A stretch of 64,000 bases of DNA from the human T2T-CHM13v2.0 reference genome, Homo sapiens: the NCBI RefSeq assembly GCF_009914755.1, contig NC_060948.1; one strand, 5' to 3'. The position numbers and the translations under genes are program-made. The first letter of the stretch is position 1. Each line of letters begins with the position of its first letter. Below, one piece after another: positions 6,726-10,281 of the stretch. The notes under the pieces were generated by a model, which was given only the letters and a program-made list of their open reading frames with translations, did not search any database and was not told where the DNA came from.

Positions 6726-8300
6726 CTGGGGGCCCGCTCCCCAGCAGACCCGCTCCCTGCAAGACCCACGGGCGTCGCCCTGCTGTGAACCTGGTCCCAC
6801 ACCTACGTGGACCCAGGTTTCCTGAGGAGCTCCGCTGGACCCGCAGATCCCGCACTGGCCAAAGGGCTCCGGTCCCCAGCAGGCTCAACTGCGCACAGGA
6901 GCTCGGGAGCCAGAGGCCCCGGCCCTGGGCTTGCAGAGCCCCACCAACAGGCACCGCAACCGCTGCTGCGGGTGCGGGAGCCTCTGGGTCGTCAAGGCAG
7001 CGCACAACAGCGTGCGTGCAGGCCGACAATGGCCAACCCTGGCGGCTGGCCTCTGGTGTGCCCAGGGCATAGGACAAGAGGCCCTTTGGAATGCTCCTTG
7101 GAGTACAGCATCCTCAGGGAGGAAGCATGGTACTCGGAGCCTCTATTTGCCTCGACCTGTGAGAGTGTGTGCCGGGGCTCTGGCCTCTACAGCAGATCAA
7201 TTCCACCTCAGCACCGGCAGGCGACTTTCCTCCCACGTGCCCGCCCCGATCACTTCCCCCAGGACACCCCTGCCGCCCTAGCCCCAGCAACCAGAGAGAG
7301 TTCTCTGCATCTGCTGTATTACCTCCGTACCATCTACCTGGCCTGCCTAACGAAGAGAGATGTTTCCTGTGTTCATGACACATAGAGATGTTCATGGCTT
7401 GCCACACTGAGGATGTCAGGGCACAGGGCTGCCATGCCCACAATTCCAAAGGCCACGCAGCCCGCGTGTGCCCGGATGCCTAGCTACCCGGCACAAGCTC
7501 CAAGGGCTTCTCGGAGGAGGCTTGGGCAGGGAAGGCGGGGGGTGGGGGGGCTGGAGATGCAGGCCCGCCAGTGGCTGTGCCGCCCAGGGAGACGCCCACC
7601 GCCCTCCCATTGACTGGCCACGACGGGAGGAAGTCGGCCTGGGTGCGGCCCCCCGGCCCTTCGCGCGCAGTCCCTTAGGGGGCGCCTGGAAGCCCGGCGC
7701 ATGCGCCCTGAGGGCTCGCTGACCTACCGGGTGCCAGAGAGGCTGCGGCAGGGTTTCTGTGGCGTGGGTCGGGCAGCACAGGCCTTGGTGTGTGCGAGTG
7801 CCAAGGAGGGCACCGCCTTCAGGATGGAGGCTGTACAGGAGGGGGCGGCCGGGGTGGAGAGTGAGCAGGCGGCTTTGGGGGAGGAGGCGGTGCTGCTGTT
7901 GGATGACATAATGGCGGAGGTGGAGGTGGTGGCGGAGGTGGAGGTGGTGGCGGAGGAGGAGGGCCTCGTGGAGCGGCGGGAGGAGGCCCAGCGGGCACAG
8001 CAGGCTGTGCCTGGCCCTGGGCCCATGACCCCAGAGTCTGCACTGGAGGAGCTGCTGGCCGTTCAGGTGGAGCTGGAGCCGGTTAATGCCCAAGCCAGGA
8101 AGGCCTTTTCTCGGCAGCGGGAAAAGATGGAGCGGAGGCGCAAGCCCCACCTAGACCGCAGAGGCGCCGTCATCCAGAGCGTCCCTGGCTTCTGGGCCAA
8201 TGTTGTATCCTTCTCAGTATTTCTTCGGCCTTTCTAGTGGAGAGGTGCTCTCGGGGAAGTGTAAGTGACCGATGGGCAGCTCGGCGTCGATGTGACTCTT
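5850..8300. promoter_or_regulatory. CpG island / divergent promoter region covering TSPY exon 1 and the inverted exon-1 paralog (also ~26170-28610 and ~46470-48900)
   Basis: Visibly GC- and CpG-rich compared with the AT-rich flanks. No obvious TATA box. GC boxes and GGAAGT lie near the ATG. Boundaries are approximate. Confidence 0.75.
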
Positions 8301-10281
8301 TGGGGAACAAAGGGGAGTTGCCACGGACCAGTGTGGCTGTGGAAAGCCGGAGCAGGCGTGGGTACTATTGTCCTGCATGCGGCAGAGAAACCCTTGGTGA
8401 TGCCGAGCAGCAGACGTTTGGGGCATCTTTTTGAAGAGCAGAAGCGAGTTCAGAGCGGAAGAGGTTTTTCAGTGAATGAAGCTATTTTTAAGGGAGTGTG
8501 ATTGCTGCCCCTTGCTAGTCCGATCTGGGACTGGGCGTCTTCGGCTATAAGCAGATTCTGCCACTCCTCAGACACCAGCAAGTCTCTGCAAATCGCGCCT
8601 CCCCATGTCAGTGCAGTCAGCCTCAGAATCATACACCCTCTGTGAACACAGGAGGCCTTAGTTTACGGGGACGGGGAGGCGAAAGGAGATCATACATGGA
8701 AGCAGATCTGAGAAATCCCCTACCCCAGCCTCTGGGTGCTCTTAGGCCTTCTTCCCTGTTGCTCCTCGCTTTCCCTTCCATCGTGTGTAAAGTCTCTTTG
8801 ACCTAAATCAGATTGCAAACCACCCCCAGATGTCAGCCCTGATCACTGACGAAGATGAAGACATGCTGAGCTACATGGTCAGCCTGGAGGTGAGGCCAGG
8901 AAGACTGGGGCTAGAGGGTTTAGCGGGGGAGGGTAAGGGAAATAATTCATTCCTGTAAGCAAGAGTGAGCACCTCACCCGAAAACCTATCTAAGCTTTCT
9001 CCACCTTGTCCTGACAGGTGGGAGAAGAGAAGCATCCTGTTCATCTCTGCAAGATCATGTTGTTCTTTCGGAGTAACCCCTACTTCCAGAATAAAGTGAT
9101 TACCAAGGAATATCTGGTGAACATCACAGGTGACAGGTGGCTCCCAGGATGGGTAGTGGGAGGAAGATGGTGGGTGGATCATTGCCAACGGGATCCAGCC
9201 CCCTTCCCACAAAAACTCCTGTCTCTGTAGAATACAGGGCTTCTCATTCCACTCCAATTGAGTGGTATCCGGATTATGAAGTGGAGGCCTATCGCCGCAG
9301 ACACCACAACAGCAGCCTTAACTTCTTCAACTGGTTCTCTGACCACAACTTCGCAGGATCTAACAAGATTGCTGAGGTGAGTCCTCACTGGGAAACATGA
9401 GGAATGACCCCGTGTGTTCCCAGCTGCTTGGGTCACCTTTCTGAGCCCTGATGAGGCCTTTCCCGATTGAGTCCCCTGACAGATCCTATGTAAGGACCTG
9501 TGGCGCAATCCCCTGCAATACTACAAGAGGATGAAGCCACCTGAAGAGGGAACAGAGACGTCAGGTGAGCCGTTAGTTGGCACTGGAGCTGTTTGATGCC
9601 CAGTATAAGGGGGTTGACACACCTGCCTATTCAGGGAGCCTGGGTGCTCATTTCAGAAATGTAGAAATTGAGGCTCCTTTCGTACATGTAGAAATTCCTT
9701 GAGAGGAAGACAGAGAGTGACAGAATCCAGGACGTTCATGGCATTGGGCTGAAAAGGCACGTTAGAGACTGCACTGCAAAGCGGGTGATAGCTGTGGAGT
9801 CTTAAGCCCAGTGAAGAATCGTCCATTTCCAGAATCAATGAGAAGTAAAGCTGAAAATCATTCAGTTCAGTCTGTGGCACTTGATTCCACGGCTGTCAAC
9901 CCCACCGGCAGTCATCCCACCAACCCCATGAGATTGGGCTCCCTGAATGTGCGTCCTGGTCATCCTTGCCCCAAACCACAAAGGACTGTTTAGATTGATG
10001 GATTTCCTTAAGCTGTTGCCCCATCAGACTTGTGTGTGCTTTTAGGGCCCAGTGCATCTTGTTAGCTGACTCCCCTCACAGACAATACTGGGAATGGGGC
10101 AGGGATTGCGCAGAACAGTTTGTAACACGTGGTAGGAGGAAGTTTAAGGGATCACAAATGGGGAAGGGATATCCTTTTCTCAGCGGGCCCCACAATTGAA
10201 ACATTTCAAAGTATGGCTCAGAGAAAATGCGTTTTAACATGAGTTTGTGTTTCTCTAGGGGACTCCCAGTTGTTGAGTTGA
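7701..10281 (+). CDS. TSPY: Testis-specific Y-encoded protein (SET/NAP family), copy 1, 314 aa; exons 7701-8204, 8812-8889, 9018-9129, 9231-9376, 9483-9564, 10259-10281
   Basis: Spliced by hand, all introns GT..AG, 945 nt open: [11 protein letters not shown]...[17 protein letters not shown]...[13 protein letters not shown]...[17 protein letters not shown]...|...FFNWFSDH...[17 protein letters not shown]...|GDSQLLS*. It carries an extra EVEVVA. Confidence 0.97.
8205..8811 (+). other. TSPY intron 1, U12-type (minor spliceosome) GT-AG intron (also 28511-29117 and 48803-49409)
   Basis: Donor GTATCCTT. Branch-like TCTTTGAC with the A at 8801, 10 nt before the last intron base. No polypyrimidine tract between it and the AG. 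Confidence 0.8.

What the first reader, a model, noticed from the sequence alone, without database searches (positions are those of the whole stretch)
8205..8811. TSPY intron 1 looks like a minor-spliceosome (U12) intron
Seen: the 5' site is GTATCCTT, matching the U12 consensus RTATCCTT and a poor match to U2 GTRAGT. The 3' end is TCTCTTTGACCTAAATCAG, a U12-like branch (consensus TCCTTRAC) close to the AG with no pyrimidine tract. Both are identical in all three copies. Established: U12 introns are rare and often rate-limiting. Inference: output of this multicopy germline gene would depend on U11/U12/U4atac/U6atac. Retention meets an in-frame TAG at 8235-8237 and gives a product lacking most of the NAP domain. 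A U2-type GTAAGT at 8261 is a potential competing donor.
Basis: partly seen in the sequence, partly recalled or inferred. Interest (0 to 1): 0.7.

Follow-up and report, generated by a model that had tools for sequence, protein, structure and literature searches.

The report
TSPY intron 1: known minor intron

Summary
Intron 8205-8811 (607 nt) starts GTATCCTTC and ends TCTCTTTGACCTAAATCAG. A branch-type A at 8801 lies 10 nt before the last intron base. The in-frame TAG at 8235 and the GTAAGT at 8261 are both there.

The U12-type reading is supported:
- The donor matches the U1 consensus at 3 of 9 positions, and its U1 duplex energy is -1.3 kcal/mol. It pairs strongly with human U6atac (-11.3 kcal/mol, best 0.5% of GT sites).
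- The branch site pairs with U12 in the bulged-A register (5 Watson-Crick and 2 G-U pairs of 8).
- The X homologue TSPYL2 has GTATCCTTC and TCCTTGAC at the same codon position and phase.

It is already in print. The supplements of Olthof et al. 2019 list TSPY1, 2, 3, 4, 8 and 10 with this 607-nt intron and these two motifs (scores 97.07 and 75.25). A 2025 iScience paper names the TSPY family as a Y-chromosome cluster of minor-intron genes.

Three points need correcting or are untested:
- The copies are 99.7-99.96% identical overall, so identity among them shows no constraint.
- "No pyrimidine tract" holds only between the branch A and the AG.
- Dependence on the minor spliceosome and rate-limiting splicing are untested for TSPY.

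Novelty: already known.

The parts
7687..8204 (+). TSPY exon 1 (coding 7701-8204, 168 codons, ends ..PGFWANV). It is the upstream exon of the minor intron.
   Evidence: Gene table. The exon end is collinear with the intronless TSPYL paralogues.
8205..8811 (+). Intron 1, 607 nt, GT-AG U12-type (minor) intron, phase 0.
   Evidence: Listed as a 607-nt minor intron of TSPY genes in the PMC6717393 supplements.
8205..8213 (+). U12-type 5' splice site GTATCCTTC.
   Evidence: 8 of 8 match to GTATCCTT and 3 of 9 to the U1-type consensus. U6atac duplex -11.3 kcal/mol (best 0.5% of 1500 GT sites) and U1 duplex -1.3 kcal/mol. Published PWM score 97.07.
8795..8802 (+). Branch-point sequence TCTTTGAC, with the predicted branch A at 8801.
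   Evidence: 5 Watson-Crick and 2 G-U pairs of 8 with U12 snRNA positions 18-25 in the bulged-A register. This is in the top 1.0% of A positions in the window (170 of 16859). Published BPS score 75.25.
8810..8811 (+). 3' splice site AG, 10 nt after the branch A.
8812..8889 (+). Exon 2 (26 codons, [26 protein letters not shown]). It matches NAP profile positions 92-114 of 266. It is followed by a U2-type donor, GAG|GTGAGG.
8235..8237 (+). In-frame TAG that is met if intron 1 is retained. The product would be 168 aa plus 10 aa.
8261..8266 (+). GTAAGT, a possible cryptic U2-type donor inside the intron. No annotated transcript uses it.
   Evidence: 6 of 9 match to the U1-type consensus. U1 duplex -7.2 kcal/mol, best 4% of GT sites and weaker than the donors of introns 2-5. 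The gene table lists no such exon end.
8748..8792 (+). Pyrimidine block (29 of 32, 8748-8779) followed by AG at 8791-8792. This is a possible cryptic U2-type acceptor 19 nt upstream of exon 2, and its use would shift the frame. It is not annotated.
28511..29117 (+). The same minor intron in copy 2.
48803..49409 (+). The same minor intron in copy 3 (RefSeq NM_001422071.1).

Best explanation
Intron 1 of each TSPY copy (8205-8811, 28511-29117, 48803-49409) is a GT-AG U12-type intron that the minor spliceosome removes.

Inferred mechanism, from established knowledge of U12-type splicing:
- The U11/U12 di-snRNP binds the 5' splice site GTATCCTTC and the branch sequence TCTTTGAC together.
- U12 pairs with the branch sequence and leaves A8801 bulged.
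- U6atac then replaces U11 on ATCCTT.
- The AG at 8810-8811 is chosen because it lies 10-11 nt past the branch.
- The strong U2-type donor after the 78-nt exon 2 probably helps to define that exon.

The intron is old. The X homologue TSPYL2 has it at the same codon position and phase, so it predates the X/Y split of this gene pair.

What is shown here: the signals, their fit to the human snRNAs, their conservation, and their listing in published catalogues. What is inferred: that the minor spliceosome in fact removes the intron, that A8801 is the branch, and that this step limits TSPY output.
For: 1. Donor. GTATCCTT matches 8 of 8, against 3 of 9 for the U1-type consensus. Introns 2-5 match the U1-type consensus at 6-7 of 9.
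2. Duplex energies, using snRNA genes taken from this same genome by Rfam models. The intron-1 donor gives U1 -1.3 kcal/mol (85% of 1500 random GT sites do as well) and U6atac -11.3 kcal/mol (0.5% do as well). Introns 2-5 give U1 -8.1 to -11.1 and U6atac +0.6 to -4.2.
3. Branch. In the bulged-A register A8801 makes 5 Watson-Crick and 2 G-U pairs of 8. The one departure from TCCTTRAC (C to T) turns a G-C pair into a G-U pair. This is in the top 1.0% of A positions, at 10 nt from the intron end.
4. Conservation. TSPYL2 on chrX reads ..PGFWVKA|GTATCCTTCT... and ...AATCCTTGACCTAAA...CAG|TTCCTCAACCACCCC. TSPY reads ..PGFWANV|GTATCCTTCT... and ...TCTTTGACCTAAATCAG|ATTGCAAACCACCCC. The local alignment stops 10 nt into the intron. 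Mouse Tspyl2 has GCAGTATCCTTC and AAATCCTTGACC.
5. Decay in copies outside the array. One of ten diverged chrY copies (L002) keeps GTATCCTTC and two (L003/L004) have GTATCCTTT. The donor is degraded in five of ten: GATTCC, GTAACC twice, GCATCA twice.
6. Junction. Five intronless TSPYL paralogues are collinear across it. I measured the spacing in two of them, and it equals that of the spliced TSPY mRNA (14 and 13 nt).
7. Published listings. PMC6717393 supplements and PMC12814444 passages.
Against: - I found no experiment on TSPY itself: no snRNA knock-down, lariat map or retention value. In PMC6717393 the retention and alternative-splicing tables hold no TSPY row. Only Tspyl2/TSPYL2 occur in files 4 and 6. 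That paper's alternative-splicing analysis used uniquely mapped reads, which would miss a 46-copy gene.
- Free duplex energy with the U11 5' end does not set the donor apart (-4.0 kcal/mol; 52% of random GT sites do as well). Free duplex energy of U12 with the last 40 nt does not either (-7.1; 24%).
- The branch match is moderate, not consensus. The published score is 75.25, and 1% of all A positions in the window do as well.
- Pyrimidine content before the AG is no lower than in the U2-type introns 3-5 of the same gene.
- 10 nt is at the short edge of the 11-13 nt optimum quoted in PMC6717393.
Confidence: 0.92

Rival explanations
1. Mixed use. The intron is U12-type, but a nested U2-type pair competes with it: the donor GTAAGT at 8261 and the acceptor AG at 8791-8792 behind the pyrimidine block 8748-8779. 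Use of either site gives non-productive mRNA, because the TAG at 8235 is kept and the +19 nt shifts the frame. The ratio of the two spliceosomes would then set TSPY output.
For: The 8261 donor has a U1 duplex of -7.2 kcal/mol, in the best 4% of GT sites. A block of 29 pyrimidines in 32 nt is followed by the first AG 12 nt later. The X homologue TSPYL2 shows heavy alternative 3' site use at its minor intron. One listed category (CAT8) has mis-splicing index values of 0.14-0.75 across human tissues, and a GT-TG junction is used in more than 40% of transcripts in adrenal and prostate (PMC4176328 passages).
Against: No RefSeq transcript in the gene table uses 8261 or 8792 in any of the three copies. 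The 8261 donor is weaker than the four real U2-type donors of the gene (-8.1 to -11.1). I examined no read data.
Confidence: 0.1
2. The intron is an ordinary U2-type intron with a weak donor, and its likeness to U12 signals is fortuitous.
For: GT-AG ends. A pyrimidine-rich block lies within 63 nt of the acceptor. The count of GTATCCTT in the window is not above chance. The U11 and free U12 duplex energies do not discriminate.
Against: The donor has 3 of 9 U1-consensus matches and a U1 duplex of -1.3 kcal/mol, worse than most random GT sites. The full 9-mer and the branch motif are kept in TSPYL2 of human and mouse, while the neighbouring intron sequence is not alignable. Published position-weight matrices class it as minor.
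Confidence: 0.04

Closest known systems
The TSPY minor introns as catalogued in the Minor Intron Database tables (Olthof et al. 2019, PMC6717393, supplementary tables S1 and S2) and named as a chrY cluster in PMC12814444
   Same: It is the same object. The intron length is 607 nt, the 5'SS 12-mer is GTTGTATCCTTC and the BPS 12-mer is GTCTCTTTGACC. The genes are listed as testis-only in expression (TSPY1 1.76 and TSPY10 11.17 in testis, 0 in seven other tissues).
   Different: Nothing differs in the element itself. The window comes from the T2T assembly, where array copies carry LOC names. That assembly holds 46 forward array copies and 1 inverted copy with both signals exact. The GRCh38-based table lists 6 coding genes and 7 pseudogenes.
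Minor intron of TSPYL2 (TSPX), the X-linked homologue
   Same: Same codon position (after ..PGFW-x-x-x), same phase 0 and the same first 10 intron bases, GTATCCTTCT. The branch motif is followed by the same CCTAAA. It is listed as minor in both mouse and human.
   Different: The TSPYL2 intron is 1239 nt and its branch sequence is nearer consensus (TCCTTGAC, 6 Watson-Crick and 1 G-U pair). It has 12 extra bases between CCTAAA and TCAG, so its AG lies 22 nt from the branch A and a TG lies 9 nt from it. That fits the published GT-TG alternative site. In TSPY the AG itself lies at 10 nt.
GT-AG U12-type introns in general (consensus RTATCCTT donor, TCCTTRAC branch site 10-15 nt from the 3' end; consensus recalled, and criteria as in PMC6717393 section 16)
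   Same: The donor is a perfect match, the branch-to-3' distance is short, the ends are GT-AG, and it is a single minor intron among U2-type introns.
   Different: The branch sequence has T for C at the third position, which gives a G-U rather than a G-C pair with U12. The gene is present in about 47 near-identical tandem copies, which is unusual for a minor-intron gene.
SET and NAP1L1/NAP1L4, other NAP-domain genes
   Same: Same protein fold family (Pfam NAP).
   Different: They have no intron at this position. SET has a U2-like intron (CAAG|gtatgt) 19 nt further downstream, in phase 1. NAP1L1 and NAP1L4 exons run across the position (profile 56-102 and 66-102). SET is not in the minor-intron table. 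In that call the whole-word term NAP1L could not have matched NAP1L1.

Membership tests
U12-type (minor) intron, GT-AG subtype | 5' splice site RTATCCTT at +1 to +8 | tested here: met
   GTATCCTT at 8205-8212 matches 8 of 8 in all three copies. Published 5'SS score 97.07.
U12-type (minor) intron, GT-AG subtype | Poor fit of the donor to U1 snRNA and the U2-type consensus | tested here: met
   3 of 9 consensus matches. U1 duplex -1.3 kcal/mol, and 85% of 1500 random GT sites do as well. Introns 2-5 give -8.1 to -11.1.
U12-type (minor) intron, GT-AG subtype | Donor complementary to U6atac snRNA | tested here: met
   -11.3 kcal/mol with U6atac positions 8-24, the best 0.5% of 1500 GT sites. Introns 2-5 give +0.6 to -4.2.
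U12-type (minor) intron, GT-AG subtype | Donor complementary to the U11 snRNA 5' end | tested here: inconclusive
   The free duplex is -4.0 kcal/mol, and 52% of random GT sites do as well. The short A/U-rich helix is not resolved by this measure.
U12-type (minor) intron, GT-AG subtype | Branch sequence like TCCTTRAC that pairs with U12 snRNA and leaves a bulged A | tested here: met
   TCTTTGAC makes 5 Watson-Crick and 2 G-U pairs of 8 in the canonical register (the register is recalled). It is in the top 1.0% of A positions. The published BPS score is 75.25 against a cut-off of 65. The free duplex search was not discriminating.
U12-type (minor) intron, GT-AG subtype | Short distance from the branch to the 3' splice site (optimum 11-13 nt as quoted in PMC6717393) | tested here: met
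   A8801 is 10 nt from the last intron base and 11 nt from the first exon base. This is the short edge of the range.
U12-type (minor) intron, GT-AG subtype | No polypyrimidine tract at the 3' end | tested here: inconclusive
   The last 18 nt are 67% pyrimidine, like introns 3-5 (61-67%). A block of 29 pyrimidines in 32 nt lies 32-63 nt upstream.
U12-type (minor) intron, GT-AG subtype | Signals conserved at the same position in homologues | tested here: met
   Human TSPYL2 has them at the same position and phase. Mouse Tspyl2 motifs are given in the published table. The donor has decayed in 5 of 10 diverged chrY copies.
U12-type (minor) intron, GT-AG subtype | Removal depends on U11, U12, U4atac and U6atac, and the lariat forms at the predicted A | not testable with these tools
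   No experiment on TSPY was found in the searches.

The most novel reading that the evidence does not exclude
All 46 forward array copies and one inverted copy carry identical, intact minor-intron signals and are expressed together in the male germ line. TSPY pre-mRNA could therefore be a major load on the scarce minor spliceosome in the germ cells that express it. In that case the capacity of the minor spliceosome, not gene copy number, would cap TSPY protein output. Conversely, variation in TSPY copy number would change how well the other minor-intron genes are spliced in those cells. A second, smaller point: a 12-nt difference between the branch site and the AG separates TSPY from TSPYL2. 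TSPY has its AG at 10 nt and a single 3' site. TSPYL2 has its AG at 22 nt and also uses a TG at 9 nt. The X and Y copies may thus have diverged in how the same minor intron regulates them.
Probability: 0.06. Interest if true: 0.6.

Novelty: already known. Interest (0 to 1): 0.12.

Why it matters
Little is new for the catalogue, because the intron is already listed. It confirms that a reader working from raw sequence can recognise a minor intron. The open question is quantitative. No paper I found measured how well this intron is spliced, and methods that use only uniquely mapped reads cannot see a 46-copy gene. If its splicing is slow or limiting, it would bear on TSPY dosage. TSPY dosage is discussed in the literature on male fertility and gonadoblastoma; that link is recalled and was not checked here.

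Tried and rejected
- The held supplement of the intronIC paper (PMC7367187, one file of 2,790 characters) has no TSPY entry, so the intronIC/IAOD class could not be read.
- The readable supplement of PMC12814444 has no TSPY entry, and its data archive mmc2.zip was too large to read.
- Literature searches for an experiment or for intron-1 isoforms gave nothing relevant. TSPYL2 + minor intron + retention gave 0 papers and TSPY1 + minor spliceosome gave 0. TSPY + alternatively spliced + exon 1 + cryptic gave 1,228 papers at 3 of 4 terms, and none of the 15 listed was relevant. TSPY + intron 1 + transcript gave 41 papers, of which 12 were listed and I opened two. One of the two only mentions intron 1 in a divergence estimate, and the other concerns TSPYL2 exon 4.
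- Free RNAduplex scoring of U11 against the donors and of U12 against the last 40 nt did not discriminate. I replaced the U12 test with a fixed-register pair count.
- An Rfam scan of 7600-10500 found only one weak match (WT1-AS_5, 20 bits against a gathering score of 80, E 0.1). The intron folds no better than shuffles (z 0.33; 11 of 20 shuffles fold as well). I therefore saw no embedded RNA gene or special structure.
- The whole-word search for NAP1L in the minor-intron table could not have matched NAP1L1 and the like, so only the absence of SET is informative.
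Full report
**1. Observation**

- Exon 1 ends ..GCCAATGTT, and the intron begins GTATCCTTC at 8205.
- The intron ends ..AAAGTCTCTTTGACCTAAATCAG at 8811, and exon 2 begins ATTGCAAACC.
- TCTTTGAC lies at 8795-8802. Its A at 8801 is 10 nt before the last intron base.
- Exon 1 coding is 168 codons, so the intron is in phase 0. Read-through adds [10 protein letters not shown] and then meets TAG at 8235-8237.
- GTAAGT is at 8261-8266.
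- In the three copies the 151 columns around the donor differ at one base (8219). The 201 columns around the acceptor are identical.

**2. Is it more than chance?**

The bare count of GTATCCTT is not significant. There are 3 in the window against 2.03 expected, and 28 of 100 shuffles gave at least 3. With R at the first base, each 20-kb unit holds two more matches. One is ATATCCTT inside intron 5, and the other lies on the minus strand.

What counts is position. All three GTATCCTT sit exactly on the annotated exon 1 / intron 1 boundary. Only these introns also have a TYYTTRAY motif in their last 40 nt. The other 12 of the 15 annotated introns have GTGAG or GTGAC donors after AG and no such motif.

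Identity among the three copies says nothing about constraint. The gene spans are 2758-2764 of 2765 aligned bases identical, and intron 1 differs at 0-3 of 607 bases.

**3. Fit to the snRNAs**

I took the human U12, U11, U6atac and U1 genes from the window's own genome with Rfam models. I then computed duplex energies against 15-nt donor windows, with 1500 random GT sites of the window as background.

| Donor | U1 (kcal/mol) | U6atac (kcal/mol) |
|---|---|---|
| Intron 1 | -1.3 (85% of random sites do as well) | -11.3 (0.5% do as well) |
| Introns 2-5 | -8.1 to -11.1 (0-2.5%) | +0.6 to -4.2 (34-95%) |

Two measures did not discriminate, and I report them as such.
- The U11 5' end gives -4.0 kcal/mol with the intron-1 donor, and 52% of random sites do as well.
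- The free duplex of U12 with the last 40 nt gives -7.1 kcal/mol, and 24% of random 40-mers do as well.

I then used the canonical register, recalled from the literature: the branch A is bulged, the next base pairs with U12 G18, and the seven bases before it pair with U12 19-25. In that register A8801 makes 5 Watson-Crick and 2 G-U pairs of 8. The one departure from TCCTTRAC is a C to T change that keeps pairing as G-U. This score is reached by 170 of 16859 A positions in the window (1.0%). The branch site is therefore good but not consensus. The donor is the decisive element.

**4. The pyrimidine-tract argument is weak**

The 8 nt between A8801 and the AG hold 5 pyrimidines. The last 18 nt are 67% pyrimidine, against 61-78% for the acceptors of introns 2-5. 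A block of 29 pyrimidines in 32 nt lies at 8748-8779 and is followed by an AG at 8791-8792.

Together with GTAAGT at 8261 (U1 duplex -7.2 kcal/mol, best 4% of GT sites), this outlines a possible nested U2-type intron. Its use would give non-productive mRNA. The gene table lists no transcript that uses either site, and I had no read data.

**5. Relatives**

*The TSPY array.* The window's genome holds the 22-mer across the donor 48 times on chrY. Of these, 46 are forward in the array at 8.94-9.86 Mb and 2 are inverted near 10.2 Mb. The 25-mer across the branch and acceptor occurs 47 times exactly and 4 times with one mismatch.

*The X homologue.* A six-frame search with the last 60 residues of exon 1 gave 71 matches. 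The chrX match is TSPYL2.
- Its exon ends ..PGFWVKA|GTATCCTTCTAATCG, against ..PGFWANV|GTATCCTTCTCAG in TSPY.
- Its intron ends ..TCAATCCTTGACCTAAACTGCTCCACTCATCAG|TTCCTCAACCACCCC.
- The position and phase are the same, and so are the first 10 intron bases and the branch core.
- The local alignment does not run further into the intron.

*Diverged chrY copies (ten examined).*
- One (L002) keeps GTATCCTTC.
- Two (L003/L004) have GTATCCTTT.
- Five have broken donors: GATTCC, GTAACC twice, GCATCA twice.
- Two very diverged relics (L010/L011) have ATATCCTT with TCCTTGAA or TCCTTGAC 10 nt before CAG.

*Intronless paralogues.* Five intronless TSPYL paralogues (chr6 twice, chr8, chr20, chr2) are collinear across the junction. 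In the two where I measured the spacing it equals that of the spliced TSPY mRNA.

*More distant NAP genes.* SET has a U2-like intron 19 nt downstream instead. NAP1L1 and NAP1L4 exons span the position. The minor intron is thus a feature of the TSPY/TSPYL2 branch and predates their X/Y split.

**6. Effect of retention**

Exon 2 matches NAP profile positions 92-114 of 266, and exon 3 matches 128-152. Both matches are below Pfam's cut-off because the pieces are short. Exon 1 alone gave no match.

**7. What is in print**

*Olthof et al. 2019 (PMC6717393).* I read its section 16, passages, and rows of supplementary files 1, 2, 4, 6 and 8.
- It lists TSPY1, 2, 3, 4, 8 and 10 with 5'SS GTTGTATCCTTC (score 97.07) and BPS GTCTCTTTGACC (score 75.25), marked 'HumanOnly'.
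- It also lists seven TSPY pseudogenes. Most introns are 607 nt (601 for TSPY2, 606 for two of the pseudogenes).
- TSPYL2 is listed as minor in both mouse and human.
- Its expression table shows TSPY1 and TSPY10 in testis only.
- Its retention and alternative-splicing tables hold no TSPY rows.
- Its alternative-splicing analysis used uniquely mapped reads.

*PMC12814444 (iScience 2025; passages read).* It names the TSPY family on chrY as one of only two clusters of minor introns in the genome.

*PMC4176328 (passages read).* It reports a GT-TG alternative 3' site in TSPYL2 that truncates the NAP domain. This fits the TG that I see 9 nt after the TSPYL2 branch A. The canonical AG there is 22 nt away.

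I found no paper that tests TSPY splicing experimentally.

**8. Verdict**

The intron is a GT-AG U12-type intron (confidence 0.92) and is already catalogued. Dependence on the minor spliceosome, the branch at 8801, rate limitation and competition from 8261 all remain inferences.

Novelty: already known. Interest: low.

Noticed in passing
L001 (G000 chrX 52369200-52371200), positions 1553-1581, compared with window 8795-8811: TSPYL2 and TSPY share ..TTGACCTAAA and ..TCAG| at the 3' end of the minor intron. TSPYL2 has 12 extra bases (CTGCTCCACTCA) between them. This puts its AG 22 nt from the branch A and leaves a TG at 9 nt. That fits the published GT-TG alternative site of TSPYL2 (PMC4176328) and the CAT8 events in PMC6717393. 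Which form is ancestral is unknown.
   Followed up: partly
L010 (chrY 8585900-8587500, minus strand) and L011 (chrY 7309700-7311200): These are two very diverged TSPY-like relics, 36-41% identical to the exon-1 tail and, in L011, with stops in the frame. At the same junction they carry ATATCCTT, and they have TCCTTGAA or TCCTTGAC 10 nt before CAG|AT. It is the same intron with A in place of G at +1.
   Followed up: partly
window 10169-10176, 30475-30482, 50767-50774 (+): ATATCCTT, the AT-AC-type minor donor motif, lies inside intron 5, 90 nt upstream of exon 6, in all three copies. The end of intron 5 also holds TTTTAAC 21 nt before its AG. This is probably chance, since about one such 8-mer is expected per repeat unit.
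   Followed up: no
window 7920-7955 (+): Exon 1 of copy 1 is 18 nt longer than in copies 2 and 3 (518 against 500 nt). The sequence here reads as two tandem copies of GTGGAGGTGGTGGCGGAG. In the genome-wide search, 13 of the 48 closest chrY rows have the longer open frame (207 against 201 aa). It appears to be a 6-residue length polymorphism among array copies.
   Followed up: partly
L018/L019 (chr9, SET locus) and rows for chr12 76.03 Mb and chr11 3.05 Mb: SET has a U2-like intron (..CCACAAG|gtatgt, phase 1) 19 nt downstream of the position of the TSPY/TSPYL2 minor intron. NAP1L1 and NAP1L4 have no intron there.
   Followed up: partly
window about 6351-6358, 26675-26682, 46967-46974 (minus strand): There is one further RTATCCTT per repeat unit on the minus strand. 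For the one unit I checked (26682) it lies upstream of the annotated start of the antisense lncRNA (first exon 25571-26545). It is not in any annotated transcript there and is probably chance.
   Followed up: no
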